Source of the DNA: Candidatus Omnitrophota bacterium
Lineage (GTDB): Bacteria > Omnitrophota > Gorgyraeia > Gygaellales > Profunditerraquicolaceae
DNA length: 64,000 bases
Direction of reading: 5' to 3'
Assembly (NCBI GenBank): GCA_030650425.1
Contig: JAUSED010000002.1
Location: 2,388-66,387 of the forward strand
The translations under genes were made by a program, and so were the position numbers. Positions 2 to 63,961 of the stretch are shown one piece after another; positions within the stretch are counted from its first letter, which is position 1, and each line of letters starts with the position of its first letter. The notes beneath the pieces were generated by a model. It was given only the letters and a program-made list of their open reading frames with translations. It did not search any database and was not told where the DNA came from.

Positions 2-3000
2 TACAGCATAGGTACCGGTTGTGCCTAAGAAGACAGGATTTTTGATCCCGGAAATAACAATGCTTGGTGTAGCTGCGGCGCTAATCGCTGTGCCGGTTGT
101 AATGGTTAAGGTCTGATTAGAAGCTGCGACAGTTGAACCAGTGTTACCTGAGACATAAGCTAAGGAGCCGCTTAGATCGTAGTTGGCATTAAAGTCTACT
201 TCGATCTTGCCGCCGGAAGCAATAGGATTAGCCGTGGTAAAAGCAATCGTATGATTGGTAGTTGCTCCGGCTTTCAACGAGGCTGGGGTAATGCTGGGAG
301 TAATCAGCGCGCCGGCATTAACCACCACACTCCCTGATACGCCGGTCTTAGCGGCAGTATCTGTAGCGGTTAAAGTAATTGTTTCAGCGATGGTGTCTTT
401 GGCATAAACCGTCGCCACGCCTGTAGCTAAAGTATAGGTGGTAGTGGTGGTAGTATAGGTATTATCCGTATAGAATAAGGCCGAGCCGGAATTAGTCATC
501 GTCACTACGGTCGATGAATCTGTAGTAACGGTGTTATTAACGCTGTCTTTAGCTGTGGCTGTAGCTGACCAACCTGTGCCGGCAGTCTGCGGAGTCGCGC
601 TGGTTATCACATAAGAAGCAATGGCGCTGGGATTAACCACCACATTGCTGCTGGTACCGGTCTTGGTATTAGCATCGGTCGCGGTGATGGTAATCGTCTG
701 GCTAGTCGCGTCTCTGACATAGACCGTCGCCGTACCGCTGGCAAGAGTATAGGTAGTAGTGGTGGTATTGTAGTTGTTATCAGTGTAGAATAGCGCGGCG
801 CCGGAGTTAGTCATCGTTACCACTGTAGATGAGTCTGTGCTCACCGTGTTATTATAGGTATCCTTAGCTGTAACTGTCGCTGACCAGCCTGTGCCGGCGG
901 TTTGCGGAGTTGCGCTAGTTACCACATAAGAAGCGATGGTTGGGCTGGGGTTGACCACTACATTACTGCTTACCCCGGTCTTGATATTAGCATCGGTCGC
1001 GGTGATGGTAATCGTCTGGGCAGTAGTATTTTTAAGATAGATCGTTGCTGTGCCGCTGGCAAGAGTATAAGTAGTGGTGGTGGTAGTATAAGTGTTATCA
1101 GTGTAGAATAACGCCGCTCCGGAGTTAGTCATGGTTACCACTGTTGATGAATCTGAGCTAACTGTGTTATTCAGGCTGTCTTTGGCTGTAACCGTAGCTG
1201 ACCAGCCAGTGCCGGCGGTTTGGGGAGTCGCGCTGGAGACAGTATAGTGGTCAATCGCAGCCGCGCTCACTACTACATCCGTGCTGGTGGCTGAAGTATA
1301 ACCACTGTTAGGATAGGTTACGTTGATCAGGTCTAAGCTGGGGGTAGCGTTAGCATCTGTAGTTGCTAAACTGGCGGCAAAATCTAAGGTAGTGGTGGTA
1401 GTGGGAACAAAGCCTCCGCTGGATTGCCATTGGCTGCGGGTGATCCCTTCTAAGGTAGTTTTGGAGATGCCGTTGGTGGCGATATTACCCAGTGTGGAAG
1501 CTGTCCAGCTAGAACCATCCCAATATTTCCAAGTTGTCCGGCCGTCAAAGGAAACCAGATATTTGATGGAGGTATTCGCGGGCGTAGTCTGGGTCAGCGA
1601 AGCGCTGGATAAACCGGTCCAGCTGGAAGTATTGATCTGCGAGCCGGCGGCAGTAGTAACATAATAAGCTTGGGAAGTGGGGTAAGTAAGCGCGGGGAAT
1701 TCATAAATTTTTACCTCGGAAAGCGCGCGGCTAATCGAATCCCAGTTCGGGCCTCTTAAAACCATTTTCAAATAACGGGTGCTCACATTTAAACTTATAT
1801 TTATGTACTGGGCGCCCTGGGTTGCCAAAACATCATGGGTGATCACCAAAGTCCAGTTACTGCTGTCCGGAGAACTATAGACATCCACATATTTGGGAAG
1901 ATACCAATTTTGGACAGTATCATATCCCATCCAAGGAGTGATTTTACTCACCAGCTTGGTGGTCGTTAAATCAAAAACGTAAGACCAATCAAGCGTGGAG
2001 TTAGTGCTTGTGTTCGTCAAACAACACTGGCCAAAAGTAGCAATCCCGTCAGATAGGCAAGCAGGAGGCGTGGTGGTAAGCGTGCCGTTTTGATAATAAG
2101 TGGCTTCGGTAATCGTATAGCTTACCTGCTGTTCTCCTGAACCGGTTGACTTCAGAGCTACTGCTCCGCTGGCAAAGGCTGTGCCATTTGTCCCATCCTG
2201 TTGAGTATAATTACCCGCAGTAGTAAAATCCACACTGCTATCCGCGCTAGCTCTCTCAGCCTTAATGTTCATCGTTTCTGCCTTATTATAGGAAAGGCCG
2301 GAGAAGGTAGCTACGCCATCAACTACGGTAGCAGTTAAGTTGGCTCCTTGGAGTGTATCTGTGCCGGTTGCGCCGCGGGATAAGGTAATACTGGTTGAGT
2401 CGTCCGTGATGATCGTATTGCCTAAGCTATCCTGCACCGCTACCTTAGGCTGTTGAATAAAGGCTACGCCTGCTGTAGCTGTGCTGGAAGGCTGCTGGGT
2501 AAAACCGAGTTTACTGGCTGCGCCGGCATTAACTACCACATTGCTGCTAGTGCCGGTCTTGGTATTAGCATCAGTTGCGGTGATGGTGATGGTTTGAACG
2601 GTGTTATCCTTGACATAAATCGTCGCTGTGCCGCTGGCAAGGGTGTAGGTGGTGGTCGTAGTGGTATAAGTGTTATCAGTGTAGAATAGCGCGGCCCCGG
2701 AGTTAGTCATGGTTACCACTGTAGATGAGTCTGTGCTCACCGTGTTATTCCCGGCATCCTTAGCTGTAACTGTCGCTGACCAGCCAGTGCCGCTAGTCTG
2801 CGGAGTTGCGCTGGTGACAGTATAAGAGGCGATTGCCCCGGGATTAACCACCACATTACTGCTTACCCCGGTCTTGGAATTCGCATCGGTTGCGGTTAAG
2901 GTAATCGTCTGGGCAGTTGCGTCTTTGACATAGATAGTTACTGTGCCGCTGGCAAGGGTGTAGGTGGTGGTCGTTGTGGTATAAGTGTTATCAGTGTAGA

Positions 3001-6000
3001 ATAGCGCGGCCCCGGAGTTAGTCATGGTTACCACTGTAGATGAGTCTGTGCTCACTGTGTTATTCCCGGCATCCTTAGCTGTAACTGTCGCTGACCAGCC
3101 TGTGCCGGCGGTCTGCGGAGTTGCGCTGGTGACAGTATAAGAGGCGATGGCGCCGGCGCTAACCACCACATTATTACTGGTGGCTGAAGTATAGCTGGCA
3201 TGGTTTACGCTAATCAGGTCTAAGGTAGGAGTGGCGCCGGCATCTGTACTTGCTAAACTGGCGGCAAAATCTAAGGTCGTGGTGGTAGAAGGAACAAACC
3301 CTCCGGTAGATTGCCACTGGCCGCTCGTGATCCCTTCTAAGGTCGTTTTGGAGATGCCATCGGTAGCGATACTAGCGAGGGCAGAAGCTGCCCAGCTAGA
3401 GCCATTCCAATATTTCCAAGTTGTCCGGCCGTCAAAAGAAACCAGATACTTGATCGAGGTATTCGTCGGTGTGGTTTGGGTTACCGCGGCGCTGGATAAA
3501 CCGGTCCAGCTGGAAGTATTGATCTGTGAGCCGGCGGCAGTAGTTACATAATAGGCTTGAGAAGTAGGGTAACTAGAAATAGCATAGGCTGAAGTTGGAG
3601 GCGTAAAATTAGCTGTCCATCTGGCGATGCCTTTAGAGACGCGCAGTTCGTCCATATATCCTTTAAGATAACCGCTAAAATCCGCTTCAAGGCCGATACT
3701 TAAACCGCTGGCAAAATCAGGTATGGCATTGGTAATCGTATCGTTAGTTCCTCCTAATTTTTGGCCGTCAACGTAAAGGCTGAAAAGATTGCCATTCCTC
3801 ACCACCGCTACATGATACCAGGTATTGATTGACGGCGACCAGGTGCGGGTAATCCCGACCGCGGTCGGATACCAATCAAATCTCAAAAGTGAGTTGGAAC
3901 TGGTATAACAAAATCTCCAAAAAGTAGAACCATTGGCATACTGTTCAATGAAGCCGCAATTGCGTATTTCCGTAAAATAAACCCAAAAATCAATGGTGAA
4001 ATCTCCTGCGTCAAAGAACCAGTCCGCGCTATCCGCAGCACTTAGATAATTTCCTCCTCCTCCGTCTTGATAAGCGCTGTACCCGCCGAATTTACTTTGG
4101 GTGTTACTCCGGCTGTCTGTGCCGTTGATGGTTATGCTGTGCGGCGCGCTGCTGCTATCGGTCAGGCCCGTATCATCCATATGCATCAGTAATTGCGTGT
4201 TGGCATCGCTGGTTCCGTGCAAGATTACTGTGCCGCTAGAAAAATCCGTGCCAGAGGTCGCGTCCTGCTGGGTATAGTTGGCCTCTGTAGTAAAATTCAG
4301 GCTGCTGTCCGCGGAAGCTGCATCAGCCTTGATAGTCATCGTCTCAGCCTTGTTGTAGTACAGGCCGTTGAAAGTTGCCAAACCGCTTGAGGCAGTTGCA
4401 GTCAATGTGCCTTGCAGGGTATCTGTGCCGGTTGTGCCGCGGGATAAGGTAATACTGGTTGCGTTGTCTGAAGTAACGGTGTTGCCATAGGCATCCTGAA
4501 CAGCCACAATCGGCTGCGTACCAAAAGCCGTGCCTGCTGTAGCTGTGGCTGAAGGCTGTTGGGTAAAACCGAGTTGTGTGGCGGTTGAAGCGCCTATGCT
4601 TATGGTTCCTGTAGCATCACCCGTTAACGTTGCGTGGGTCGCGGTAACCGTCCCTGAACCTGTATTGTTTACGCCCGGCTGGAGAATAGTGGACGCGCCT
4701 GAAGCAGCGCTTAACCAAGCGCTGTTCAGGGTCCCGGTTACACCCCAAGTTACCGACTGATCTGCTACATAAGTATTGGTATTATCATATTCCGCGGCAT
4801 AGAGGGTTAAAGTATCCTGATTGGCAACCAATGACGCGGTAGTTACCTCGCTTCCCCCTCCTGACGCGGCATTTCTTATAGTGATATGATCCTTCGTCTT
4901 CCACGCCGCGTAACGGTATATGGTGTTGCTAGGGCTATTCACGCTCGTGCCGCTTCCGACGCTAAACCCGTCGCTAATACTATCTTTAATTCCAGTACCA
5001 CCGGTGATATTCGCGGTATTGGCAAAATATTGACAATTATCCGCTGCCAAGGAATCACTCCGCTGCACCGCGTTTACGGTATTATTTCCCTTAACCCAAA
5101 CCAAATCAGGCTGGAATCCTACTCCGGTAATATCTTTACTCGCCTGCGCGTCCGCAGTGTAAGAACCGACGCTAAAATTATCGTCGGCTTTAAAGGCAAA
5201 CCACCAATAGATAGCTTGGTCGGTATTAACATAACCACCGTAGCCTATCTGGAACCCGTCCGGCTCTAACGCCTGAATAATATTTGATGTTTCCGCTACG
5301 CTGCCAAATAAAGAGGATGAATCGCCCGTATGATTGGAAGTCCTCCAGACACCCCCATTCGCGGTAGAAGCCTTAATCACCACTAAATCCGGCTGAAAAC
5401 CTAGCCCGGTAATCGAACGGTTATCTAAAGCGTTACCCGCATAACTGCCTACTTGAAAATCAACCGCGCCTGTGCTTGGTATATCAAATGCCTCCCAGTA
5501 ATAAGTCCCGGCGCTGGTATTCACTGTAGCGTGCGTCCCCACAGTAAACCCGTCGCTGTCTAAAGAGGTGACCGCTCCGCTAAGATCAGCAGTCCCTGTA
5601 GATAGATAAGCTGACCTATCGCCATACATCGCCGAGCTTCTAAACACAGCGTAATCTGTGGTAATGCTTTTAATGATCACTAATTCCGGCTGAAAACCTA
5701 GCCCGCTGATCGACTGAGCAGAGCCGGTCCCGCTATATGAACCTTTGGCCAGATTAAAACTACCTGTGGCAGCAGCAGCTGCCTGTTCCGCGAAAGCGGC
5801 GTAATAATAAGTATAATTTACTGTATTAACATTTCCGCCAGTCCCAACCTGAAAGCCGTCGCCAGCCGGCTGCTCTAATGATTGGATTGCGTTTACCCCA
5901 TTACCCACAGCTGTAAAGTAACCGCTGGAATCGCCTTTTAAGGAAGAACAGCTAAACATCGCTGAGTCAGTAACGGTATCTTTCACAAAAACAAAACCCG

Positions 6001-9000
6001 GCTTAAAGCCTACGCCTGAAATATTCCGGTCATCTGTGCTGTCACCGGTATAGCTGCCGACTTTAATCGAACCCGCTGCCTGCTTAAAAGCCGCATACCA
6101 GTAATTTGTTGAGCCGGCATTCACCTGAGCATCTGTGCCCACAGTAAAACCATCGCTGACAAAAGCGGTAATCTGGTCCGCTCCCTGAGATTGGCCGTTA
6201 AAATAAAGTGAGTTGCTGCCGCTTACATCCGCGGTCCTCCAAACTCCTAAGTTAAGGCCTGAACTTTTAACCCAAACCAAATCCGGCTGGAAGCCTACGC
6301 CGGTAATATCATGGCCGGCGCCTGTGCCGCTATAGGTGCCGACTTTAAAATAACCGTTTCCTGAACCGCTAAAGGCAATCCACTGATAAGCTGTTCCCGC
6401 GTTATTTACCGCGGTATTCGTGCCTAAGGTAAATCCACCGCTATCTAAGGAAGTAATCCCGCCGCTAAAATCCGCGCTGGCAACTCCCAGATAAGCCGTC
6501 GTATCTCCGGTCATCGCTGAACTCCTAAAGACTAAGCCGGCTGTGCTGCTCGCTGATTTAACCATCACCAAATCCGGCTGGAACCCTACGCCGGTAATCG
6601 CGAGGCTCGCGCCGGTACCGATATAGGTTCCGGTTTTCAGGGTGGGAACGCCGGCAGTGGTATTTAAGGTAGTAAAATTCCAAGTGGTCGTATCGCTAAT
6701 CCCGGCATAGGCAAGGCCTGCCGTATCCTTGAAACAAGTACCGGCTATCTGAACATAATAACCTGTATTATAGTTAAAGTCGGACGTAGGATTAATGTTA
6801 ATTGTTTTTGTGCCGCTGCCGGTTACCTGACTGGAGGTAACCGCGATGGTTTCTACGGTAGAGTTATCCGAAGATTTTTTAATCACAATATTGCCGGTAT
6901 TGATATCTACCGGCTCAGCGAAGTTAATAATCAGGTTTACGCCTACTCCGGCAGATGTAGCGCCGTCAGCCGGAGAAAAACTGCTTACAGCGGGGTTAGT
7001 AACATCCGCGCTATATACCCGCCACGCCGCGTAACGGTATACGGTTGAGCTGGGGTTATTTACGGCTGTACTATTACCCACAGTAAAGCCGTCGCTAATA
7101 ATATTTTTAAGGTTAGTCGTAGCATTCGCTACATTAGAAAAATATTGGGAATTAGTATCCGTAAAAGAACTGCTCCGGTGCACTCCTTGATTGCCTGCCT
7201 TTGACTTAATCCAGACCAAATCCGGCTGGAACCCTACGCCGGTAATGTTTGTGTTATCTGTGTTATTGGCGCTGTAAGAGCCTACGCTAAAATTATTCCC
7301 GGCTTTAAAAGCAAACCACCAATAGGCCACTCCGACGCTGTTCACATAACTTGAGGCGCCTACTTTGAACCCGTCTGTTTCTAATGCCTTGATATTTCCC
7401 GCTTCTTCTGAAGTGGCGTCAAAAAAAGAACAGCGTTCACCCGAATGGCTGGAAGTCTTCCAAACCCCTATGTTTCCATTAGAGGCTTTAATCACCACCA
7501 AGTTAGGCTTAAAACCAACCCCTGTAATTGACCTGTTATCTGTAGAACTACCCAGATAACTGCCTACTTGAAAATCAACCGCGCCTGTGCTTGGTATATC
7601 AAATGCCTCCCAGTAATATGTGCCGCCATTGGTATTTACTGTGGAGTCGGATCCTACAGTAAACCCGTCGCTGTCTAAAGAGGTAACTCCTCCGCTAAGA
7701 TCGCCGGTAGAGGAGTTAGCTAAATAAGCTGACCTGTCGCCATACATCGCTGAGCTCCTAAATACAGCGTAATCTGTGGAAATGCTCTTAATGATCACTA
7801 ATTCCGGCCTAAAGCCTAAGCTTGAGATGGATTGGGTAGTGCCATTACCGCTATATGAGCCTTTGGCCATCGTAAAATTGCCCGCGGCAGCAGCAGCCGG
7901 CGGCCCGCTAAACGCGGCATAATAATAAGTAGAACTTACCGCGTTAACATAAGCATTAGTCCCCACTTGGAACCCGTCGCCGGCTGGCGTATCCAGTGAT
8001 TGAATAACATCTGAAACATTGGCAGCGGCTGTAAATAAAGGGGAATAATCGCCGATTATCGAGCGGCAGCTAAACGCGCCCAAGTTAGTAGTGGTATTTT
8101 TTATCAAGACAAAACCCGGGTTAAAGCCTACACCTGAAATATTTTTATTATCAGTTCCATCACCGGTATAAGTACCCACCTTCATTGAACCTGAAGCTTC
8201 TTTAAAGGCCACATAATAGTAAGCTACTGTGTCGGTATTTACCTCGGCATCTGTGCCTAAGCTAAATCCATCGCTGACAAAGCCGGTGATCCGGTTAGCT
8301 GCCTGGGCCGTGCCGGAAAAATAAAGAGAGTTGGTAGAACTCACATCCTTAGTTTTCCAAATCCCTAGATTAGCGCCTGAGCTTTTAACCCAGGCTAAGT
8401 CCGGCTGGAAACCAATGCCGGTAATATCTCTGCTAATGCCGTTGCCGGTGTAAGTGCCGACCTTGAAACAACCGTTTCCTGAACCGCCAAAGGCAATCCA
8501 CTGATAAGCTGTGGCTGTTACCGCGTAATTTACACTGGCGTCCGTGCCCACAGTAAACCCGTCGCTGTCTAAAGAAGCAATCCCGCCGCTGAAATTCGCG
8601 CTGGCAACTCCCAGATAAGCCGTGCTATCCGCGGCCATCGCCGAAGTTGTAAAAACCGCGGCGCCCGCGGTAGTAGCTGCTTTAATGATTACCAGATCCG
8701 GCTGGAAGCCCAAGCCGGTAATCGAGAGGCTCGCGCCGGTGCCGACATAAGTGCCGGTTTTCATTGCCGGCAGCCTTGTGGAATTAGTAAGTGTTCCGTC
8801 AGCCCCGCCTGTGCCGTTGGTGCCTTTGGTTACAGAGGGGCTTCCGCTAAAGGTACTTGTACTGCTATAAATCGCGATTCTTCCGCCGCCGCCTCCGCCG
8901 CCAGCCGAGGCTGTCGCGCCGCCATTGCCTCCGTTAGCCGTAATCGCGCCTGAACCGGCTAAGGCCGCGCAGTTAATCTGGATACTTCCGCCTGAACCGC

Positions 9001-9598: not shown

Positions 9599-9611
9599 CT
9601 TTCTCGCCTCA

Positions 9612-12587: not shown

Positions 12588-12636
12588 TCGTAAAACTACT
12601 CAATAAGCTTGCGCATATTACTCTACCCCTAAGACT

Positions 12637-12752
12637 GGAAACAGTTTCCAATCTGTGAAGGAAACTGTTTCCATCCCAAAGCGGAAACTGTTTCCGAACC
12701 AATCGGGACAGTGGGCTATCTTTCAGATTGGACATTTCAGATTGGACATTTC
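12637..12752. repeat. BIME/REP-like array B: three GGAAAC(A/T)GTTTCC copies with spacers aatctgtgaa, atcccaaagc and gaaccaatcg, plus gggacagtgggc, followed by a 15-bp direct repeat cagattggacatttc ×2
   Basis: ggaaacagtttccaatctgtgaaggaaactgtttccatcccaaagcggaaactgtttccgaaccaatcgggacagtgggc…cagattggacatttcagattggacatttc. Confidence 0.85.
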
Positions 12753-12764
12753 CCCTCATAAAAA

Positions 12765-14766: not shown

Positions 14767-14769
14767 ATT

Positions 14770-16158
14770 TTAAATCGGGAGCACCACGTTAATCGTAGTT
14801 CCCTTTCCGAGTCCGGACTCGATATGCATTGAACCGTCTAAAACTTCCACCCTCTCTTTTAAACCTACAAGCCCTAAACGCAGCTTATCTTCCCTGCGCC
14901 TTAACAATCTCTGCGTGACTAACTGGTAATCGAAACCCCGGCCATTGTCATGATAAAATAATTCCAGGGAATTTTTATTCCTATTCAAACGCACCTCGAC
15001 ATTTTTAGCCTTAGCGTGCTTAGCCATATTCGTAAGCAGCTCCTGAATTATACGATAAATTAATAAACTGTACTCCGGGGGTAATTCAAAATTGTTATCT
15101 GCCTTCTGAAAAATATATTCCACTCCGGTAAGTTGTTTCGTCTCTATAAGCAGCGACTCAAGGCTCTCTAATAACCCTACCTCGTCTAAATCCGGCGGCC
15201 TAAGCAAAAAAGCTATATTGTGGCTTTTATCAATAAGCGTTGAAGCTATCTTTTTACATTCTTCAACCTTTGTAATTAAATCTTCCGGGGACACATTGCT
15301 TTTAAAGCAATGTGTCCCCGGAAACCCTGCTAACTCTTGTGAGATCAGCCCCAAGTAAATCTTCAGCGCGCTTAAATCCTGGCCCATTTCATCATGCACC
15401 GCTGTGGAAAGTTTTTTGCGTTCACTCTCCTCCATATTGATCAAGCGGTTAAAAAGCTGCTGGCGATAAGAGTGTTCTTTTATCCTGCGCCGGTATACTG
15501 AAACCGCGATCAGCGTCCCGATAAGCAGCGCGGCCATTAAACTAAGCCTCAAGAAAAGAACCGCCTGCTCCTTATCCGCATTAGCCAAAAACATCTGCCG
15601 CTCAACCTCTTGCAGATTAGCCTTACCCATAGAGCTATCCAGGAATTCGTCTATTTTATAAACGCGGTTTTCAAACGTCATCAGCAGATTATTCACAGTA
15701 TCGCTCGTTTTGTCGGATTGCCCCAGATCAACCAATTCCACTATTTTTGCGCCCAACGCCAGAAGCTCATTGAAAGACGCGGTTATCTGATTTGCCCAAT
15801 CTTTCTGCTGCGCCAGATAAGCGCTATCTTGGTAAATCTTAAGCTGTTTTTTAAATTTATCCCCGGCGCCTAAGATGCTATTTATGTTGACGGCCATAGG
15901 CAGGGCGCCCAGATAACGCGACGATTTCCAATATACATAGTTACGCACACCCATCGCGTAGATTGTATTGCTTATCCGCATTTCAAGTACCGCTCCTTCA
16001 AGCCTAAGGCTATGCTTTCCTAAATCTTCGATTTTTCGGCTAAGCCCGTTGATCTGAGAAATGGAGACCAAGCCGATTACCAACGTAAGCAGAATTAAAA
16101 ACGCGAAAGCAAAGAGAAGTTTTTTTTCCTTAAAATTTATCGGCTTTATATTTTCCAT
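14770..16158 (-). CDS. Sensor histidine kinase (HisKA_3/HATPase; NarX/UhpB-like) with N-terminal TM segments
   Basis: The H-box is AVHDEMGQDLSALK. The ATPase region reads NVEVRLNRN…FYHDNGRGFD…GLVGLKERVEVLDGSM. An in-frame palindromic insertion at 15285-15321 encodes GTHCFKSNVSP. Confidence 0.85.
   Translation of the reverse strand: MENIKPINFKEKKLLFAFAFLILLTLVIGLVSISQINGLSRKIEDLGKHSLRLEGAVLEMRISNTIYAMGVRNYVYWKSSRYLGALPMAVNINSILGAGDKFKKQLKIYQDSAYLAQQKDWANQITASFNELLALGAKIVELVDLGQSDKTSDTVNNLLMTFENRVYKIDEFLDSSMGKANLQEVERQMFLANADKEQAVLFLRLSLMAALLIGTLIAVSVYRRRIKEHSYRQQLFNRLINMEESERKKLSTAVHDEMGQDLSALKIYLGLISQELAGFPGTHCFKSNVSPEDLITKVEECKKIASTLIDKSHNIAFLLRPPDLDEVGLLESLESLLIETKQLTGVEYIFQKADNNFELPPEYSLLIYRIIQELLTNMAKHAKAKNVEVRLNRNKNSLELFYHDNGRGFDYQLVTQRLLRRREDKLRLGLVGLKERVEVLDGSMHIESGLGKGTTINVVLPI
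15285..15321. repeat. Inverted-repeat element GGGGACACATTGC-TTTTAAA-GCAATGTGTCCCC, in frame inside the histidine-kinase CDS
   Basis: Perfect 13-bp arms. It is related to the GGGGACACTTTCC…GGAAAGTGTCCCC family at 27154, 41334 and 42980. Confidence 0.8.
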
Positions 16159-16165
16159 TTATACT

Positions 16166-16270
16166 GGAAACTGTTTCCAATCTGTGAGGGAAACTGTTTC
16201 CGAGCCAATCGGGAAACTGTTTCCCGAACAACTCGGAAACTGTTTCCGCTTTGGGATGGAAACTGTTTCG
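16166..16270. repeat. BIME/REP-like array C: five GGAAACTGTTTC(C/G) copies with 10-bp spacers
   Basis: tggaaactgtttccaatctgtgagggaaactgtttccgagccaatcgggaaactgtttcccgaacaactcggaaactgtttccgctttgggatggaaactgtttcg. It fills the whole gap between the secretin stop (16272) and the kinase start (16158). Confidence 0.85.
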
Positions 16271-16271
16271 C

Positions 16272-18335
16272 CTACTTTTGACTTTTCTCTTCTTGCCATT
16301 TCTCGAACTCTTTGACACGCTGCAGCGCCTCTTTGGTCCAGTCATCGTCGGGATCACCGTAGGAAACACGCTTGCGCCAGTAATCCAGGGCCTTAGCGCT
16401 ATCCCCTTTCCCTTCGTTAAATAAAGCTAAGTTAGCATAGGCTGCCGCGTAATCCGGATTAACGGAAATTGCCTTAAGATACATCGCTTCGGCCTCTCTG
16501 GGCTTACCCTCCTGTTCATAAATAATCCCTAAATTATTGTAGGCCGGAGCTAATTTATTATCCAATTGAATGGCTTTAAGGAAAAATTCTTTAGCATCCT
16601 TAGGGTTAGCATCGGCTTGCGCGCGCAGCCCTTTTTGATAATAATCATTGGCATTATCCTGAAGCAAAAAGTGACTGTCACTTTTGTGACTGTCACTTTT
16701 TTTCTCTCCCGATGGTAAATCCATAGTTGCCTCTTCCAATGCCTCATCCCGAGCCACCTTTTTTTGCAGGTTTTCGGGAAGATACTCATTGGGAATAAAC
16801 TGCGTTATTTTCTTGCCTTTTAAATCCATATCCCCGCGGATGATATGCGGAGTAATAAAGATGATAACCTCGGTTTTGGTAATCGATTTATCGCGGTTGC
16901 TGAAAAGCGCGCCGAGAAACGGAATCTTGGAAATTATTGGCACCCCTACAATATCATCAGTCTCCTCAGTCTTAGTCATCCCGGCAAGCACAATCATCGT
17001 TCCGTCCTTAACCTTGACTGTCGTCTCTGACTGTGAAGTTTGAACAATCGGCACAAGGCTCCCCAACGCTGTGGTGAGCGTTTGTTTAACCGAGCTGACT
17101 TCGGGTTTAAGCTTCATCGTGATAAAACCGTCGGCACCGATCCGGGGGACGATTTTTAATTTCACGCCCACATCGACAAACTCTACCGACTCCGAAGTAA
17201 CTGTGGTCGAGGTTGCCTGGCTCTGCGTCTGAGTGATATAAGCGTCACGCTCGCCAACCATCAGGTTGGCTTCTTCATTGTTCACAATCGCGATCCTCGG
17301 CTGTGAAATGACATTGGTCTTGCCGTAAGTTTCCAGGAATTTTATTAAAATATGATTTCCGCTGGTCGTGGTATTCACGAGGATCTGCTGGTAGTTGGTC
17401 AAAGTAATAGGAAAGTAACCGGTAAAGGTAATTCCATTATTTACCGCGGCTTTCATGATCTCCTGCCAATCTATCCCTCTTTGAAACTCTTTGCTTAAGG
17501 TCAGCTCAATTACATCCGCTTCCACATAAACCTGCCGGGATTCCTCATCTAACTCTCTTACCAGCCTTTCTATTTTCTCCATCTTCTTCGGCAGGTCGCT
17601 GACGATCGCCTTTTGGCTTCTTTCGTCAATAATCACCTCGCCTGTCCCCGGGGTGATCGCCGCGTTCAATTGGGTTTTGGCGTCGGCGGCCTTAGCGTAA
17701 TTAAGGTTAAATACCGACGTACCCAGCGGCTGGTCCAGTTCAGTAATCGTTTCCTTCAATAATTTCAGCTTTTCCGGTGTATCGATAAGTATGACTGTGC
17801 CGCTTGTTTCATCGACGACGATTTTACCTACGTCGGATTTTAATTGCCCCAGCGCGTTAAAAATCGTCGCGGGCTTGGCATAAGTAAGCTTAACCATTTC
17901 TAAGTTTCTCTGGTCAATGTAATCTTTACCGTAAATTTTCTTGTATTCTGCCGCGGTCATCACATAATAAACGTTTCCCTTTTTGTACGAAGCAAGGTCC
18001 TGCGTAAGCAGAATGATATCCAAGACATCGTCAAATACAACATTACTCAAATAGATGGTAATGCGCCCGGATATGCCTTTACTGGGGACGATGGTCTTTC
18101 CGGTTTTAAGGGAGATGATCCGCAAAAGTTCGACAATTTCAACATTCTTCAGGTCGAGAGAGATTTTATCTTGCTCAAGCGCTCCCTTTTGACCCGCCTG
18201 TTTTACCTCGGCGGCGTAAGTCGAAAGCGGGGCAATCAAGAAAAAGGTGACAAAGGTGACAAATAGGGACAGCGCCAATTTTTTCAATAGCCTTTGGATT
18301 AGTAAAAAATGGTCGCTGTCCCTATTTATCCTCAT
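16272..18335 (-). CDS. Secretin (GspD/PilQ/MshL family) with a C-terminal TPR-repeat extension
   Basis: The secretin core reads …VISQPRIAIVNNEEANLMVGERDAYITQTQ…IPFLGALFSNRDKSITKTEVIIFITPHIIR. The C-terminal TPR units read YYQKGL…AYNNLGIIYEQEGKPREAEAMYLKAISVNPDYAAAYANLALF. An in-frame doublet palindrome at 16670-16697 encodes KSDSHKSDSH. Confidence 0.85.
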   Translation of the reverse strand: MRINRDSDHFLLIQRLLKKLALSLFVTFVTFFLIAPLSTYAAEVKQAGQKGALEQDKISLDLKNVEIVELLRIISLKTGKTIVPSKGISGRITIYLSNVVFDDVLDIILLTQDLASYKKGNVYYVMTAAEYKKIYGKDYIDQRNLEMVKLTYAKPATIFNALGQLKSDVGKIVVDETSGTVILIDTPEKLKLLKETITELDQPLGTSVFNLNYAKAADAKTQLNAAITPGTGEVIIDERSQKAIVSDLPKKMEKIERLVRELDEESRQVYVEADVIELTLSKEFQRGIDWQEIMKAAVNNGITFTGYFPITLTNYQQILVNTTTSGNHILIKFLETYGKTNVISQPRIAIVNNEEANLMVGERDAYITQTQSQATSTTVTSESVEFVDVGVKLKIVPRIGADGFITMKLKPEVSSVKQTLTTALGSLVPIVQTSQSETTVKVKDGTMIVLAGMTKTEETDDIVGVPIISKIPFLGALFSNRDKSITKTEVIIFITPHIIRGDMDLKGKKITQFIPNEYLPENLQKKVARDEALEEATMDLPSGEKKSDSHKSDSHFLLQDNANDYYQKGLRAQADANPKDAKEFFLKAIQLDNKLAPAYNNLGIIYEQEGKPREAEAMYLKAISVNPDYAAAYANLALFNEGKGDSAKALDYWRKRVSYGDPDDDWTKEALQRVKEFEKWQEEKSQK
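16670..16697. repeat. Doublet palindrome GTGACTGTCAC-tttt-GTGACTGTCAC inside the secretin CDS, in frame
   Basis: agtgactgtcacttttgtgactgtcactttttt. Confidence 0.85.
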
Positions 18336-19840
18336 ATTTTTCTTTCGCGGCCGGAATTGTCGGCTCCGGTAATTATCGTCGGGGTAATAAAGATAATCAA
18401 TTCTGTTTTTGTATTTTCCTTACTTCTGCTGCTAAACAACGGGCCAATTATAGGGGTCCGGGATAATCCGGGCAGGCCGTTTATGCTCCCGGTATCTTCA
18501 TTTTTCATCAGCCCGGTTATAATTAAGGTGGAGCCGTCTTTAACCTTGACCACTGTTTCTGATTGAGAAGTCTGAACTATGGGGACCTGCGAACCGGCAG
18601 CCGTAGTCAAGGTACTCGTTACGCTGCTAACCTCAGGCTTGATTTTCATCGTGATATACCCGTCGGCGCCGATAGTGGGAACAACGCTCAGTTTAACCCC
18701 TACGTCGATAAACTGAATACTCTCGGAAGTAATAGTGGTGGTTTCAGCCTGACTCTGGGATGCGGTTACGTAAGCTTGGCGGCTACCCACAAGAAGCTTT
18801 GCCTCTTCCTTGTTTACCACCACAATCCTCGGCCGGGTAAGCACCTTAGTCGTGCCGTATTGGTTAAGTAAATTCATCACCGCGTTAAAATTATCTCTGG
18901 TCAAGACGCCTAAATCTATCCTTCCGTAAGAAGATAGGGCTGGGCTCACCGCGAAATTACCCACCAAATCCAACTTTTGCCTTCCCGCGTCTTTAAAGAT
19001 TCCCTCCCACGATATGCCGCTTTGTAATTGATCATCGAGGGTAATCTCGATTATCTCTCCGCTAATCAACACCTGCCTGCTTTGTTCATCAAATTCTGCC
19101 ATTAGCTTTTTAATCCTGTTCACCCTTTGAGGCAGGTCAGTAACCATCACTTTAGCGCTCCTCTCGTCAACGATCACCTGTCCTACTCCCGGAGTAATCA
19201 AATCATTAATGTAGGTTTTGAGGTCGGCGAAACGCGCGTAGTTGATATCAAAGACCGCGGTCTCCAGCGGCTGATCCAGTTGTTTGATCGTATCCTCGAT
19301 TACGCGTACTGACTGCGGGGCATCGATGATGATAATCGTTCCGGTAGAATCATCGGAGATTATTTTGCCTACATCGGATTTTAAGTTTGAGATAACATTC
19401 ATCACATTCGCCGGCTTGGCATAGTTCAATTTGATCGTCTTGGTCTCCTTGCGCTCCCAGAATTTTTTGCCGTTGGCCTTTTCGTATTCGGCCCCGGTCA
19501 TTACTTTGACGATTTTACCTTTTATTTCATACGCTAAATCCTGCATCGTCGTAATCACATCCAAGGCGTCGGTAAAGGAAAGGTTATCCATAAAGACAGT
19601 AACCCTTCCTTTAACCTCGGGAGTGGTAATCACCGTCATCCCGCTTTTCTCCGAGAGCATTTTAAATAACTCATTAATTTCTACTCCTTTTAGATCCAGG
19701 GTAATCTTGCTCTCGCTTTTCTCTTCGCCTGTTTGCGGCTGAGCGGGCGCGCTATCCTGTTGAACATCTTCCGCGGATAAAGAACTAAGGCCCATCCAGA
19801 AAATAACCGTAAACGTAACCAATACAAATCCGGCTCTCAT
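18332..19840 (-). CDS. Secretin paralog (GspD/PilQ family), directly upstream of the TPR-secretin with a 4-bp overlap
   Basis: …VLTRPRIVVVNKEEAKLLVGSRQAYVTASQ…GLPGLSRTPIIGPLFSSRSKENTKTELIIFITPTII. The N-terminal domains are homologous to those of 16272-18335. Confidence 0.85.
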   Translation of the reverse strand: MRAGFVLVTFTVIFWMGLSSLSAEDVQQDSAPAQPQTGEEKSESKITLDLKGVEINELFKMLSEKSGMTVITTPEVKGRVTVFMDNLSFTDALDVITTMQDLAYEIKGKIVKVMTGAEYEKANGKKFWERKETKTIKLNYAKPANVMNVISNLKSDVGKIISDDSTGTIIIIDAPQSVRVIEDTIKQLDQPLETAVFDINYARFADLKTYINDLITPGVGQVIVDERSAKVMVTDLPQRVNRIKKLMAEFDEQSRQVLISGEIIEITLDDQLQSGISWEGIFKDAGRQKLDLVGNFAVSPALSSYGRIDLGVLTRDNFNAVMNLLNQYGTTKVLTRPRIVVVNKEEAKLLVGSRQAYVTASQSQAETTTITSESIQFIDVGVKLSVVPTIGADGYITMKIKPEVSSVTSTLTTAAGSQVPIVQTSQSETVVKVKDGSTLIITGLMKNEDTGSINGLPGLSRTPIIGPLFSSRSKENTKTELIIFITPTIITGADNSGRERKI

Positions 19841-20496
19841 CTTAATTCGTAGTCGCTTGTTTTTCCGCCGGAAGAAATCTCCAAGGTGGCTGAATTACGC
19901 GAAACCTCTTTAATCTTAAATTGTTCGTTTTCAAAAGAATCGCCTTTTTTTAAAACATAGGTCCGGGAGTTAGGATCCTTGCCGTACTCAATCATTACTT
20001 CAGGGTTAGCTGACCAAATGATCCCCACTAACTTTAAATCCTTAGTCAGTTCGGCCACTTTTGGGCCATCTGTTTCAACAGATTCAATGGGTTTAACCCC
20101 GGGCGGAAGGAAAATATCTCTTTTGATATCCTGAGGTAAAACATTTTTACGCAGGATACCCTGGTTTTCTCTCGAAGAAATCACTTTGGATATCGCCGCC
20201 GCGTCGGTAGAAGTAAAATAAGCGGCATTGGAGGCCGAAACAACCGGCCCGCTTAAAAGGCTGTAAATTAAAAAAAGGGTAACTACGGAGGCGGTTAAGA
20301 CCAAAACCTTATTGAGAAGGGGAAGGTTGAACTTAAATTCTTTAATATCTTTCAGGTTTAAGCCGAATTTATGTGTAGGTATAAGCTCGGATAATGATTT
20401 TTTCGGGCTTACGCCGATACTTGGCTTACGCTTGATTTCACCTGTGCCGCCTTCGATAATCTTTAGTAGTCTTTCGTCTGAAGTCCCCTTATCCAT
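19837..20496 (-). CDS. PilP/GspC-like secretin-associated protein. A short cytoplasmic N-terminus and one TM precede a periplasmic β-domain.
   Basis: The TM segment is VLVLTASVVTLFLIYSLL. The C-terminal region reads GIIWSANPEVMIEYGKDPNSRTYVLKKGDSFENEQFKIKEVSRNSATLEI. It sits directly upstream of the secretins. The track start METVSKGK is a translation of a GAAACAGTTTC repeat, so the start is moved to the ATG at 20496-20494 (MDKGTSDE…). Confidence 0.5.
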   Translation of the reverse strand: MDKGTSDERLLKIIEGGTGEIKRKPSIGVSPKKSLSELIPTHKFGLNLKDIKEFKFNLPLLNKVLVLTASVVTLFLIYSLLSGPVVSASNAAYFTSTDAAAISKVISSRENQGILRKNVLPQDIKRDIFLPPGVKPIESVETDGPKVAELTKDLKLVGIIWSANPEVMIEYGKDPNSRTYVLKKGDSFENEQFKIKEVSRNSATLEISSGGKTSDYELR

Positions 20497-20505
20497 TTTT
20501 CCTTT

Positions 20506-20564
20506 CGAAACTGTTTCCATCCCAATCGGGAAACTGTTTCCGAGCCAATCGGGACAGTGTCCCC
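20506..20564. repeat. BIME/REP-like array D: GAAACTGTTTCC, GGAAACTGTTTCC, and the hybrid GGGACAGTGTCCCC
   Basis: cgaaactgtttccatcccaatcgggaaactgtttccgagccaatcgggacagtgtcccc. Confidence 0.85.
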
Positions 20565-20570
20565 TCTCCG

Positions 20571-21395
20571 CTATACCGCATTCCTGGCAATTAAATCCCG
20601 CACTAAGGTCGCGTCGATCACCGTCTTATTACTGGTAATCAAGCTCCTGAGCGCGTTATGACAAACTAAATTTATCCTGCGCGGATATCCCTGGCTATAA
20701 CGATGAATCTCGCTAATTGCCTCATCTGTAAAGAGTTTCAGCTCAGAATTAAACCCCGAGGCCCGCAACCGGTAATTGATCATATCCCTTGTCTCTTTTT
20801 CATCCAGGGGATTGATTACATATTTAAGGACGATGCGGTCAAAAAAGTTCTTGATCTCTTTGATCCGCGGGAGGAGCTCCATCTGGGAAAAAAGGACCAG
20901 CTGTAATAATTTATATTCGTTGGTTTCATAATTTAACAAGACGCGCAATACTTCTAAGGAAGCCGGATTAAGTTTTTGCGCTTCATCCACCACAAAAACA
21001 ATCGTTTTATTTTCTTCCACGCCTTTTTGAAAAAGAAACTTCTTGATCGCCTCTTTATAATCCAACACATTGGGAGAAGATTTAATTTCATCCTGAATGC
21101 CGAAGGTGCGTACTAGCGACTCCATAAAAAGTTCTTCACTCTGGGGGGTAGGATCCATAATCATATAAAAAAGAATATCTGGCCGCTCCTTTAACATCTG
21201 AAAAAGCTTACGCGATAGAGTAGTCTTACCCACCCCCACATCTCCTAAGATGACGCTTAATCCACGGCGCAAACGTATCTCGACCAAGACTCGAAGCAGG
21301 CAGGCCTTATGTTCGATAGATTCATAGAAGAAAGCCGGATCCGGGCTGCTGGAGAAAGGTTCTTTTTCTAAACCTAATACGGTATAATAGCTCAT
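20571..21395 (-). CDS. AAA ATPase of the ExeA/GspA/MshM family
   Basis: The Walker A motif is GDVGVGKTTL and the Walker B motif is TIVFVVDEAQKL. The family is usually encoded next to secretins. Confidence 0.7.
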   Translation of the reverse strand: MSYYTVLGLEKEPFSSSPDPAFFYESIEHKACLLRVLVEIRLRRGLSVILGDVGVGKTTLSRKLFQMLKERPDILFYMIMDPTPQSEELFMESLVRTFGIQDEIKSSPNVLDYKEAIKKFLFQKGVEENKTIVFVVDEAQKLNPASLEVLRVLLNYETNEYKLLQLVLFSQMELLPRIKEIKNFFDRIVLKYVINPLDEKETRDMINYRLRASGFNSELKLFTDEAISEIHRYSQGYPRRINLVCHNALRSLITSNKTVIDATLVRDLIARNAV

Positions 21396-21622
21396 TGTCC
21401 TTTTAACAAAATCCCCCGGATAAGATGCAGCGAATATCCCTGGCTCTTAAGCTTGCTTATTCTGGCTAACCCGGAGCGAACCTCCCGGATACTATATAAA
21501 CGGTTATTCCCCTCCCTCCTGCGTACTTTTAATAAACCCAAGTTCGTATAATAATTGATTGTCTGATAAGAAAGATTGTATTTCTTGCTGATTTCAATAG
21601 GTGAGATTAAAGTTTTTGCCAT
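21392..21622 (-). CDS. Small MerR-family helix-turn-helix DNA-binding protein
   Basis: ISPIEISKKYNLSYQTINYYTNLGLL is a MerR-type HTH. A strong AAGGAGG ribosome-binding site lies 6 nt before the ATG. Confidence 0.55.
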   Translation of the reverse strand: MAKTLISPIEISKKYNLSYQTINYYTNLGLLKVRRREGNNRLYSIREVRSGLARISKLKSQGYSLHLIRGILLKGQ

Positions 21623-23073: not shown

Positions 23074-23118
23074 TTGAGATATAATACTACTTTGGCCAGG
23101 TTGTGTCAACCGGAAAAT

Positions 23119-60698: not shown

Positions 60699-63961
<3,263 letters not shown>

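What the first reader, a model, noticed from the sequence alone, without database searches (positions are those of the whole stretch)
2..21622. About 20-kb co-directional locus in which a secretin operon precedes two giant secreted repeat proteins
All genes here are on the minus strand. Transcription order is MerR-like regulator → MshM/ExeA-like ATPase → PilP/GspC-like protein → secretin → secretin with C-terminal TPR fusion → histidine kinase → NarL-type response regulator → AlbA_2/HATPase regulator → 991-aa DUF2341 secreted protein → giant protein of more than 3190 aa with a signal peptide. No type II or type IV pilus core genes (pseudopilins, GspE/PilB ATPase, platform protein) are present in the window. 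Two tandem secretin paralogs are unusual, and so is a secretin fused to TPR repeats (which resembles a fusion of MshL and MshN). The giant protein's N-terminal Gly-rich domain resembles the C-terminal domain of the upstream 991-aa protein. This suggests a dedicated outer-membrane export route for giant adhesin-like proteins.
Basis: partly seen in the sequence, partly recalled or inferred. Interest (0 to 1): 0.65.

Follow-up and report, generated by a model that had tools for sequence, protein, structure and literature searches.

The report
Twin-secretin cassette linked to giant adhesins
In the uncultured phylum Omnitrophota, two outer-membrane pore (secretin) genes and their anchoring proteins always sit beside a sensor/regulator pair, a lectin-like protein and a huge variable surface protein, with no pilus motor nearby, which suggests but does not prove a private export gate for the giant protein.

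Summary
All genes at 2-21622 are on the minus strand with the stated domains, and no T2SS or T4P engine gene occurs anywhere in the 64-kb window. The organism is a Candidatus Omnitrophota MAG.

The order MerR, GspA-like ATPase, GspB/C-like HR protein, secretin, secretin-TPR, histidine kinase, response regulator, DUF2341 protein, then a very large secreted protein recurs in about 34 non-redundant loci. It persists down to 52-56% secretin identity, with different flanks and after rearrangements.

The two secretins form two ancient clades defined by position. The 227-aa protein has a PilP/GspC HR fold. The DUF2341 protein's C-terminus is homologous to the giant's N-terminal Gly-rich domain (hhalign E 8e-13). 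The AlbA_2 gene is accessory and sits in a variable slot.

Single-secretin relatives of the ATPase/HR-protein/secretin triad lie inside complete T2SS/T4P-like clusters, so this cassette is a derived version without an engine.

Export of the giant protein through the secretins is inferred, not shown, and the sequence beyond the giant gene could not be retrieved. Giant genes next to T2SS-like loci are already published for Omnitrophota, but with a different gene set.

Verdict: new variant of a known kind, moderately interesting.

The parts
21392..21622 (-). MerR-type HTH protein (76 aa), first gene of the cassette. Its stop overlaps the start of the next gene (ATGA).
   Evidence: Pfam MerR_1 at 1.4e-9. 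The overlap is shown. Orthologs hold the same position in nearly all loci.
20571..21395 (-). Cytoplasmic GspA/ExeA/MshM-like AAA+ ATPase (274 aa). It has Walker A GDVGVGKTT and a DEAQ motif, and no transmembrane segment.
   Evidence: Pfam AAA_22 at 7.8e-18. TIGR03015 scores 173 bits, below its cutoff of 324. The maximum hydropathy is 1.27. It is 75-92% identical across the twin-secretin cassette loci and 69% in the L048-L050 variants.
19837..20520 (-). GspB/GspC/PilP-like bitopic protein. It has a conserved cytoplasmic N-terminal motif (SDERLLKxIEG), one transmembrane helix (about aa 66-89) and a periplasmic HR domain (aa 160-227, window 19840-20043).
   Evidence: A profile search of the PDB hits only the GspC HR domain (3oss_C, E 8e-4) and PilP (3jc8). 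In the AF2 model the HR domain has pLDDT 89-95. The top 8 Foldseek hits in the PDB are all PilP, GspC or PulC. JGI names homologs 'PulC', and distant homologs carry PF11356.
18332..19840 (-). Secretin paralog 1 (502 aa): signal peptide, N0-like region, two Secretin_N domains and the secretin core.
   Evidence: Pfam Secretin at 4.8e-44. All NCBIfam subfamily models score below their cutoffs. It falls in the 'position 1' clade of the NJ tree.
16272..18335 (-). Secretin paralog 2 (687 aa) with a C-terminal TPR module (about aa 555-665, window 16341-16673).
   Evidence: Pfam Secretin at 2.5e-45 plus TPR families. More than 100 homolog clusters, nearly all from Omnitrophota, have the same fusion. 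It falls in the 'position 2' clade. The TPR part is a separate gene in L042 and L049. The closest solved secretins are PilQ, then GspD.
16159..16271 (.). Intergenic gap filled by 5 copies of the palindrome GGAAACNGTTTCC at 23-bp spacing.
   Evidence: The same palindrome sits in the same gap in L005, L014, L022, L024 and L026.
14770..16158 (-). Membrane sensor histidine kinase (4HB_MCP periplasmic sensor, HisKA_3, HATPase_c). It carries an 11-aa in-frame insertion from a 43-nt palindrome at 15282-15324.
   Evidence: Pfam, the alignment to orthologs and the palindrome scan.
14128..14766 (-). NarL/GerE-type response regulator (212 aa).
   Evidence: Pfam Response_reg at 1.9e-27 and GerE at 5.8e-16. 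It is conserved in the cassette.
12765..14153 (-). AlbA_2 / HATPase_c_4 / wHTH protein. It is an accessory gene in a variable slot.
   Evidence: Pfam. In relatives the slot holds ParE, MNT/HepT, DUF6036, an AlbA_2 homolog or nothing.
12429..12764 (.). Intergenic region upstream of the DUF2341/giant gene pair, with two clusters of the 23-bp-period palindromes.
9612..12428 (-). Secreted multidomain all-beta DUF2341 protein (938 aa from TTG 12428; the ORF is open to 12587). It contains a ConA-like lectin/CBM-type domain. Its C-terminal Gly-rich beta-helix-like domain (about window 9612-10391) is homologous to the giant's N-terminus.
   Evidence: Pfam DUF2341 at 1.3e-19. The AF2 model has pLDDT 88. 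Foldseek matches CBM66, legume lectin, VIP36 and GH16 folds. hhalign gives E 8e-13. Orthologs in the loci and homologs retrieved by protein search support the family.
2..9598 (-). Giant secreted repeat protein, at least 3199 aa and truncated by the window edge. In order: N-terminal signal peptide or anchor, Gly-rich domain (about 8729-9496), two blocks of 6 DUF7483 repeats, then Ig-like and LamG-like modules.
   Evidence: The frame is open from ATG 9598 to the window edge. Pfam finds 12 DUF7483 repeats. Positional counterparts in relatives were called at 3581, 5207 and 6162 aa.

Best explanation
This is one copy of a conserved, Omnitrophota-wide gene cassette. It couples an outer-membrane secretin module that lacks its own engine to a pair of Sec-exported surface proteins.

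Shown:
- The cassette encodes two anciently duplicated secretins, co-translated through ATGA overlaps. The second carries a C-terminal TPR module that is a separate gene in some lineages.
- It encodes a cytoplasmic GspA/ExeA-type AAA+ ATPase and a single-pass inner-membrane protein whose periplasmic domain has the GspC/GspB/PilP HR fold. In studied systems that fold binds the secretin N0 domain.
- It then encodes a membrane sensor kinase and a NarL-type regulator.
- Last come a lectin-like DUF2341 protein and a very large, lineage-variable repeat protein. Both have N-terminal signal sequences, and in this lineage they share a matched Gly-rich domain.
- No pseudopilin, GspE/PilB or GspF/PilC gene lies within 10 kb in any of the twin-secretin loci examined.

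Inferred:
- The ATPase and HR protein anchor and help assemble the secretin ring(s), as GspA/GspB do.
- The fused TPR acts as a built-in pilotin or tether.
- The two-component system controls expression.
- After Sec export, the DUF2341 protein and the giant adhesin are passed domain by domain through the secretin channel to the cell surface. There they would mediate attachment to host or prey cells.

The energy source for outer-membrane passage is unknown. It could be the GspA-like ATPase acting through the HR protein, or a T4P/T2SS engine encoded elsewhere.
For: - Domain content.
- Organism and breadth of the secretin-TPR fusion.
- Synteny: four of four long contigs have the same order with different upstream flanks. 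There are 34 non-redundant twin-secretin loci. Of the 14 with at least 6 kb downstream, 12 carry HK, RR and DUF2341; the other two (L038, L049) still end in a large ORF.
- Linkage survives rearrangement in L042 and L058.
- HR domain.
- GspB biology: an HR domain that binds secretin N0, pairing with the GspA ATPase, GspA forms without a periplasmic part, and GspAB fusions, all from PMC9239104. A fused ATPase-HR ORF occurs in L044.
- Ancient duplication: the NJ tree gives two clades defined by position.
- The TPR module is a separate gene in L042 and L049.
- ATGA overlaps.
- Shared domain. The long DUF2341 form and giants with a Gly-rich N-terminus occur together in the window, L022, L030 and L052, and only in part in L002. 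Neither is present in L005, L006 and L039.
- Lectin-like fold of the DUF2341 protein.
- Engine genes are absent from the twin-secretin loci, but the same scan finds them in single-secretin outgroup loci.
Against: - No experiment or co-expression data exist.
- Secretins are not known to act without a pilus, pseudopilus, needle or phage assembly machine.
- The region beyond the giant gene is unseen in the window and in every relative, because all the giant ORFs run off the fetched DNA. Engine genes could lie there.
- Omnitrophota commonly encode T4aP elsewhere in the genome (PMC10066038), so an engine acting in trans is plausible.
- The two secretins reach no curated subfamily cutoff.
- The signal peptides and the TPR-as-pilotin role are read from sequence and not tested.
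- Gly-rich composition may inflate the hhalign score.
- Conserved gene order within one phylum can partly reflect vertical inheritance.
Confidence: 0.5

Rival explanations
1. Split T2SS/T4P. The twin secretins with their GspA/GspB-like partners are the outer-membrane half of a type II secretion or type IV pilus machine. Its pseudopilins, ATPase and platform are encoded elsewhere in the genome. The neighbouring large proteins are simply its main substrates or are co-regulated with it.
For: - Single-secretin relatives of the ATPase/HR-protein/secretin triad sit inside full clusters with a GPTGSGKTT ATPase, a GspF-like gene and prepilin-motif genes (L057, L061, L064, L065).
- T4aP genes are reported in most Omnitrophota genomes (PMC10066038).
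- The closest solved secretins are PilQ.
Against: - Those canonical clusters carry their own secretin.
- None of the 34 twin-secretin loci has an engine gene within 10 kb.
- The two secretin clades are distinct from the single-secretin group.
Confidence: 0.25
2. Fibre-tip adhesin model. The secretins let a pilus-like fibre through, and the DUF2341 protein and the giant protein are adhesins mounted on it, by analogy with PilY1-type tip proteins. They would not be free or self-standing secreted cargo.
For: - DUF2341 proteins in archaeal T4P loci were proposed as tip adhesins by analogy with PilY (PMC4858521).
- The DUF2341 protein has lectin-like folds.
- The DUF2341 protein's C-terminus and the giant's N-terminus share a matched domain that could dock the two proteins to each other.
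Against: - No pilin or prepilin-motif gene lies in the window or in the cassette loci.
- Both proteins have Sec-type N-termini, not class III signals.
- The PilY analogy comes from a paper's hypothesis and is not tested.
Confidence: 0.12
3. No functional coupling. The secretin operon, the two-component system and the DUF2341/giant pair are neighbours through shared ancestry within the phylum. The giant protein reaches the surface by another route, or stays in the envelope.
For: - The cassette has separate transcription units, with gaps of 113 and 336 bp.
- The cargo genes vary widely. TA-type genes insert between the units.
Against: - Linkage is kept where flanks differ (L005, L006).
- It is also kept after inversion or translocation of the cargo pair (L042, L058).
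- It holds in variants without the two-component system (L038, L049).
Confidence: 0.1

Closest known systems
GspA/GspB (ExeA/ExeB, OutB) secretin assembly and anchoring factors of type II secretion
   Same: - An AAA+ P-loop ATPase is encoded next to a single-pass membrane protein whose periplasmic HR domain binds secretin N0.
- Some GspA forms also lack the periplasmic part, and GspAB fusions exist (PMC9239104).
- Here the same pair sits directly upstream of the secretins, the HR fold is confirmed, and one fused ORF occurs in L044.
   Different: - There is no peptidoglycan-binding domain.
- No rest of a T2SS lies nearby.
- The organisms are Omnitrophota, not Proteobacteria.
- The ATPase reaches no curated family cutoff.
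T4aP outer-membrane subcomplex: PilQ secretin, PilP, and the TPR pilotin PilF/PilW/Tgl
   Same: - The secretin core is closest to solved PilQ structures.
- The HR protein matches the PilP fold.
- The TPR module gives weak matches to PilW, Tgl and GltE.
   Different: - No AMIN domains, no PilMNO, and no PilB/T/C or pilins.
- The TPR is fused to the secretin's C-terminus instead of being a separate lipoprotein.
- There are two secretins instead of one.
- PilQ model TIGR02515 scores 226 and 218 bits against a cutoff of 284.
MSHA pilus genes mshL (secretin), mshM (ATPase) and mshN (TPR)
   Same: The same three kinds of protein are adjacent.
   Different: - MshL model TIGR02519 scores 175-177 bits against a cutoff of 250.
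- There are no msh pilins and no MshE or MshG.
- The gene order differs.
T2SS-like locus upstream of Omnitrophota giant genes (West-Roberts et al. 2023, bioRxiv 10.1101/2023.11.21.568195; restated in 10.64898/2026.06.07.730766)
   Same: The phylum is the same, and so is the general pattern: secretion-type genes next to very large, variable, adhesin-like genes.
   Different: - The published locus has more than 10 subunits, including gspD, gspE, gspF, rcpC and a PPIase. It precedes giants of more than 30,000 aa with SecA-like domains and many transmembrane helices.
- The present cassette has no gspE, gspF, rcpC or PPIase. It has twin secretins, a GspA/B-like pair, a two-component system and a DUF2341 partner.
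- Its cargo is 3,000-6,000 aa with a single N-terminal hydrophobic segment.
- The word 'secretin' does not occur in either paper.
Filamentous-phage export: secretin pIV with the inner-membrane ATPase pI
   Same: This comparison rests on my own knowledge. It is a secretin working with an inner-membrane P-loop protein and no pseudopilus, passing a long thin object. pIV appears among the solved relatives (7ofh).
   Different: The ATPase family is different, the cargo is a phage filament, and there is no sign of phage genes here.

Membership tests
Type II secretion system (T2SS) | Outer-membrane secretin GspD | tested here: inconclusive
   The Secretin and Secretin_N domains are strong. However, TIGR02517 scores 218 bits against a cutoff of 351 for both paralogs.
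Type II secretion system (T2SS) | GspC-type HR-domain protein that contacts the secretin N0 domain | tested here: met
   Profile hit to the GspC HR domain 3oss_C at E 8e-4. The top fold matches are GspC, PulC and PilP.
Type II secretion system (T2SS) | GspE assembly ATPase and GspF platform protein in the locus | tested here: not met
   Pfam finds no T2SSE or T2SSF hit among the window ORFs. No GPTGSGK[ST]T motif occurs in the window or in any twin-secretin locus, while outgroup loci score positive. The region beyond the giant gene was not seen.
Type II secretion system (T2SS) | Pseudopilins with a class III (prepilin) signal, and a prepilin peptidase | tested here: not met
   No true prepilin motif occurs in the window or the cassette loci. 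The scan's only hit there (L002/L027) is a spurious minus-strand ORF. L064 serves as the positive control. The whole genome was not available.
Type IVa pilus machine | PilQ secretin with AMIN domains, plus PilMNOP, PilB/T/C and pilins | tested here: not met
   TIGR02515 scores 226 and 218 bits against a cutoff of 284. Pfam finds no AMIN domain and no PilM, PilN, PilO, PilB or PilC. Only a PilP-like fold is present.
MSHA pilus (MshL/M/N) | MshL equivalog secretin | tested here: not met
   TIGR02519 scores 175.5 and 177.4 bits against a cutoff of 250.2.
GspA/GspB secretin scaffold pair | AAA+ ATPase with Walker A and a DEAQ-type motif, adjacent to a single-pass protein with a periplasmic HR domain | tested here: met
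   AAA_22 hit, with GDVGVGKTT and VDEAQ visible in the sequence. The partner has one transmembrane helix and an HR fold. The family definition is from PMC9239104.
GspA/GspB secretin scaffold pair | Direct binding to secretin N0, and a role in secretin assembly | not testable with these tools
   This needs pull-down, cross-linking or multimer modelling.
XrtA/PEP-CTERM exosortase-associated locus | TIGR03015 ATPase at equivalog score, an exosortase, and PEP-CTERM cargo | tested here: not met
   TIGR03015 scores 173 bits against a cutoff of 324. PrsK and PrsT give only weak hits. No exosortase is in the window. The DUF2341 protein ends ...GKAGSIVFR, with no PEP-CTERM motif. The giant's C-terminus was not seen.
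Published Omnitrophota giant-gene secretion locus (West-Roberts 2023) | gspD together with gspE, gspF, rcpC and a Rotamase_2 PPIase upstream of a giant of more than 30,000 aa with a SecA-like domain | tested here: not met
   Only secretins are present. The giant's visible 3199 aa have no SecA hit and one hydrophobic segment. Counterparts in relatives are 3581-6162 aa.

The most novel reading that the evidence does not exclude
The two secretin paralogs form one hetero-oligomeric or stacked channel with a built-in TPR pilotin. With only the GspA-like ATPase and the HR-domain protein, and no pseudopilus at all, that channel translocates folded giant adhesins of 3,000-6,000 aa bead by bead. This would be a previously unrecognised secretin-based secretion system specific to Omnitrophota. 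The matched Gly-rich domains of the DUF2341 protein and the giant would act as the docking or priming element.
Probability: 0.15. Interest if true: 0.85.

Novelty: new variant of a known kind. Interest (0 to 1): 0.55.

Why it matters
Omnitrophota are ultra-small, largely uncultured bacteria thought to attach to or prey on other cells. Their giant surface proteins are a defining and unexplained trait.

- A compact, phylum-wide cassette that ties a specific pore module and a sensor system to a swappable large adhesin gene gives a concrete, testable handle on two questions: how such proteins reach the surface, and how that is regulated.
- If the module works without a pseudopilus engine, or if the two secretins co-assemble, it would extend what secretins are known to do.
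- If it is only the detached outer half of a T4P or T2SS, it is still a useful genomic marker for finding cargo adhesins in these genomes.

Tried and rejected
- Window extension failed. Looking up the secretin-TPR and the response regulator by exact sequence returned only 3-4 kb Logan contigs from SRR13727527.
- A genome-contig scan with the last 400 aa of the giant found only distant Ig-repeat relatives, in Acidobacteriota, Saccharibacteria and Bathyarchaeia. The source genome is therefore not among the GTDB representatives.
- BLASTP between the DUF2341 protein and the giant found nothing. Profiles were needed.
- The PEP-CTERM/exosortase reading, suggested by the best NCBIfam hit of the ATPase, was rejected. 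All its scores are far below cutoff and no exosortase is present.
- The MSHA reading was rejected on model scores.
- I considered the palindrome arrays as cassette-specific operators. They also occur at 26051 and 51423, outside the cassette, so in this genome they behave as a dispersed repeat family. A conserved copy in the secretin-to-kinase gap of five other lineages keeps the operator idea open.
- The promoter and terminator scans did not exceed the shuffled controls, and Rfam found only tRNAs.
- The ATPase has no detectable solved relative by sequence.
- A literature search for tandem or heteromeric secretins found nothing relevant.
Full report
**What is in the window.** The 64-kb window is transcribed almost entirely on the minus strand. 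Positions 2-21622 hold ten genes in a row. Pfam and NCBIfam scans give, in transcription order:
- a 76-aa MerR-type HTH protein (21392-21622);
- a 274-aa AAA_22 P-loop ATPase (20571-21395);
- a 227-aa protein with no Pfam hit (19837-20520);
- a 502-aa secretin (18332-19840);
- a 687-aa secretin with C-terminal TPR repeats (16272-18335);
- a 4HB_MCP/HisKA_3 sensor kinase (14770-16158);
- a Response_reg/GerE regulator (14128-14766);
- an AlbA_2/HATPase_c_4/HTH protein (12765-14153);
- a DUF2341 protein (9612-12587);
- an open frame of 3199 aa that starts at ATG 9598 and runs off the window, with 12 DUF7483 repeats.

The rest of the window, 22-64 kb, is housekeeping: folE, mnmE, folC, purH, an EF-G-like gene, hyp genes, pyr genes, gyrA and gyrB. 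It holds no GspE/PilB, GspF/PilC or prepilin gene, and a motif scan confirms this.

Two details need correcting:
- The DUF2341 gene most likely starts at TTG 12428, which gives MARKLFLFF..., a typical signal peptide. The 53 codons upstream are built from palindromic repeats.
- MerR/ATPase, 227-aa/secretin 1 and secretin 1/secretin 2 overlap by ATGA, so they are translationally coupled. There are gaps of 113 bp before the kinase and 336 bp before the DUF2341 gene.

**Organism and breadth.** The secretin-TPR protein is 100% identical to an NCBI protein of a Candidatus Omnitrophota MAG, on an 89,156-bp contig. More than 100 homolog clusters at 46-81% identity have the same secretin-plus-TPR architecture and are labelled almost exclusively Omnitrophota. 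The neighbouring 227-aa protein carries locus tag Q7K98_00355.

Four long contigs carrying homologs at 75, 74, 60 and 56% identity all show the same order: MerR, AAA_22, a protein of about 217 aa, secretin, secretin-TPR, HisKA_3 kinase, GerE regulator, DUF2341, then a very large gene. The large gene was called at 3581, 5207 and 6162 aa. In the fourth contig (L003) the DNA ends just after DUF2341. In the two more distant contigs the upstream flanks are unrelated to those of the window.

A metagenome scan with a secretin-TPR alignment gave 58 more loci. I mapped them by BLASTP with the window proteins.
- There are 34 non-redundant loci with two adjacent secretins.
- Of the 14 with at least 6 kb downstream, 12 carry kinase, regulator and DUF2341.
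- The other two (L038, L049) lack the two-component system but still end in a large open-ended ORF.
- The association survives rearrangement. In L042 the DUF2341 and giant genes lie divergently upstream of MerR. In L058 a DUF2341 gene precedes the ATPase.

The cargo is highly variable between lineages: LamG, Big_1, Kelch propellers, Fib_succ_major.

The slot around the regulator is a hot spot for small accessory genes: ParE, MNT/HepT, DUF6036 and a 23S_rRNA_IVP protein. The window's AlbA_2 gene sits in this slot. AlbA_2 homologs recur in some loci (L002, L019, L020), but the gene is not a fixed member of the cassette.

**The 227-aa protein and the ATPase.** A profile of 30 orthologs of the 227-aa protein hits only two PDB sequences: the GspC HR domain (3oss_C, E 8e-4) and M. 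xanthus PilP.

An AlphaFold model built from 48 homologs has:
- a short conserved N-terminal helix;
- one transmembrane helix (aa 66-89);
- a C-terminal beta domain with pLDDT 89-95.

Its eight best Foldseek matches in the PDB are all PilP, GspC or PulC HR domains. JGI names several homologs 'PulC', and distant ones carry PF11356.

According to PMC9239104:
- GspB proteins are single-pass proteins whose HR domain binds the secretin N0 domain and anchors the pore;
- they usually pair with the AAA+ ATPase GspA;
- some GspA forms lack the periplasmic part;
- GspAB fusions exist.

The window pair fits that description. The ATPase has no transmembrane segment. One locus, L044, has a fused 490-aa ATPase-HR ORF. 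It is a single case and could be an assembly error.

**The two secretins.** They are 49% identical to each other. No curated subfamily model reaches its cutoff:
- PilQ: 226 and 218 bits against 284;
- GspD: 218 and 218 bits against 351;
- MshL: 175 and 177 bits against 250.

By sequence the closest solved structures are PilQ proteins, followed by GspD.

A neighbour-joining tree of 84 secretins from the loci puts almost all first-position secretins in one clade and all TPR-fused second-position secretins in another. Secretins from single-secretin loci fall outside both. The duplication is therefore old and both copies have been kept, which argues for non-redundant roles. It does not show hetero-oligomerisation.

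In L042 and L049 the TPR part is a separate gene placed after the secretins. The fusion is thus a Rosetta-stone indication of a TPR-secretin partnership. The TPR gives weak matches to the PilW/Tgl pilotins. A pilotin-like or tethering role is my inference.

**Where did the cassette come from?** The same motif scan that finds nothing in the twin-secretin loci does find engine genes in single-secretin loci. L057, L061, L064 and L065 contain a GPTGSGKTT ATPase, GspF-like N-termini and GFTLIE-type prepilin motifs. In L057, L061 and L065 the ATPase/HR-protein/secretin triad is part of that cluster. The triad therefore belongs ancestrally to complete T2SS/T4P-like machines. The Omnitrophota cassette is a derived form in which the engine genes are absent and a two-component system plus cargo genes follow instead.

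**The two large proteins.** BLASTP sees no similarity between them, and Smith-Waterman scores only modestly above shuffles. Profile-profile comparison of the DUF2341 protein's C-terminus (7 sequences) with the giant's N-terminus (5 sequences) gives probability 97.8% and E 8e-13 over 133 columns. The shared motifs are not only glycine runs.

Long DUF2341 forms with this C-terminal domain sit next to giants that begin with the same domain in the window, L022, L030 and L052. L002 keeps only its first part. Short DUF2341 forms (about 445-480 aa) sit next to giants without it (L005, L006, L039). That pattern suggests a matched pair.

The AlphaFold model of the DUF2341 protein is confident (pLDDT 88) and all-beta. 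One of its domains matches CBM66, legume lectins, VIP36 and GH16 glucanases. This indicates a carbohydrate-binding surface protein rather than a machine part. Both proteins and their orthologs start with Sec-type signal sequences, not class III signals.

**Comparison with the literature.** West-Roberts et al. (bioRxiv 10.1101/2023.11.21.568195) and a 2026 preprint report that Omnitrophota giant genes are flanked by T2SS/T4P-like genes.
- Their locus has more than 10 subunits, including gspD, gspE, gspF, rcpC and a PPIase.
- It precedes giants of more than 30,000 aa with SecA-like domains and many transmembrane helices.

The cassette here shares the theme but not the parts. Neither paper mentions secretins by that word. 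Seymour et al. report T4aP genes in most Omnitrophota, so an engine acting in trans cannot be excluded.

**Verdict.** The functional reading, a dedicated export route, remains an inference. I rate it about 0.5. The main rival is a split T2SS/T4P whose engine lies elsewhere (0.25).

The decisive missing data are the sequence beyond the giant gene and whole-genome inventories. I could obtain neither.

The feature is best filed as a new variant of secretin-based export systems. It works like the outer-membrane half of a T2SS or T4P with a GspA/GspB scaffold, but it fails the membership tests for T2SS, T4aP, MSHA and the published Omnitrophota locus.

Noticed in passing
window 12409-12695, 16166-16270, 20506-20541, 26051-26109, 51423-51458; also L005, L014, L022, L024, L026 between secretin-TPR and kinase: The palindrome GGAAACNGTTTCC occurs in arrays with a 23-bp period: 18 copies against 0.14 expected by chance. 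It fills three intergenic gaps of the cassette and two gaps elsewhere in the window. The same palindrome, with at most one mismatch, sits in the same secretin-to-kinase gap in five other lineages. It may be a conserved operator that has expanded as a dispersed repeat in this genome.
   Followed up: partly
window 10659-10687, 11184-11212 (DUF2341 gene); 15282-15324 (kinase gene); 23119-23152: Short palindromic elements are inserted in frame inside coding genes. Pairs of GGGGACTGTCCCC encode the loops GQSPSGTVPVFP and GQSPAGTVPFFS, which the other aligned homologs lack apart from P0252, and which have low confidence in the model. A perfect 43-nt palindrome adds 11 residues to the histidine kinase. 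This recalls the Rickettsia palindromic elements.
   Followed up: partly
window 60699-63770: The gyrB gene (1023 aa) contains an intein (Intein_splicing, 2e-19) just before the Toprim domain.
   Followed up: no
window 12765-14153; L002-L006, L019-L021, L046, L053: The stretch between kinase, regulator and DUF2341 gene is a hot spot for small accessory genes: ParE, MNT/HepT, DUF6036, a 23S_rRNA_IVP protein and AlbA_2 homologs. The contents differ from locus to locus.
   Followed up: partly
L044:2139-3608: A single 490-aa ORF fuses the GspA-like ATPase (81% identical) to the HR-domain protein (49% identical). It parallels the known GspAB fusions, but an assembly error is not excluded.
   Followed up: partly
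L019, L028, L029, L038 downstream of DUF2341 or secretin-TPR: A conserved trio lies between the cassette and the large ORF in one sublineage: a cupredoxin-like protein of about 180 aa, a protein of about 350-396 aa with no Pfam hit, and a protein of about 486 aa with a thioredoxin/AhpC-like C-terminus.
   Followed up: partly
L057:6770-10490: In this single-secretin locus, two ORFs of 492 and 487 aa lie between the secretin and the PilB-like ATPase. Their N-termini look like F-type ATPase alpha and beta subunits. That would match the T4aP loci co-located with F-type ATPases reported by Seymour et al. I read this by eye only.
   Followed up: no
P0049, P0092; P0288: Close homologs of the secretin-TPR and DUF2341 proteins are labelled Candidatus Methanoperedens and Parcubacteria in NCBI. 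These are probably Omnitrophota contigs placed in the wrong bins, possibly reflecting physical association with hosts.
   Followed up: no
window 22081-23520; L002, L003, L013: A PKD-domain lipoprotein-like gene and a small PilZ gene lie directly upstream of MerR in the window and its close relatives. A PKD protein also lies further upstream in L005, L023, L034 and L041.
   Followed up: no
window 9612-12428: The window's own DUF2341 protein is absent from the protein collection, where the best hit is only 64% identical. Its neighbours are present at 100% identity. It may be annotated as a pseudogene, or with another start, in the source record.
   Followed up: no
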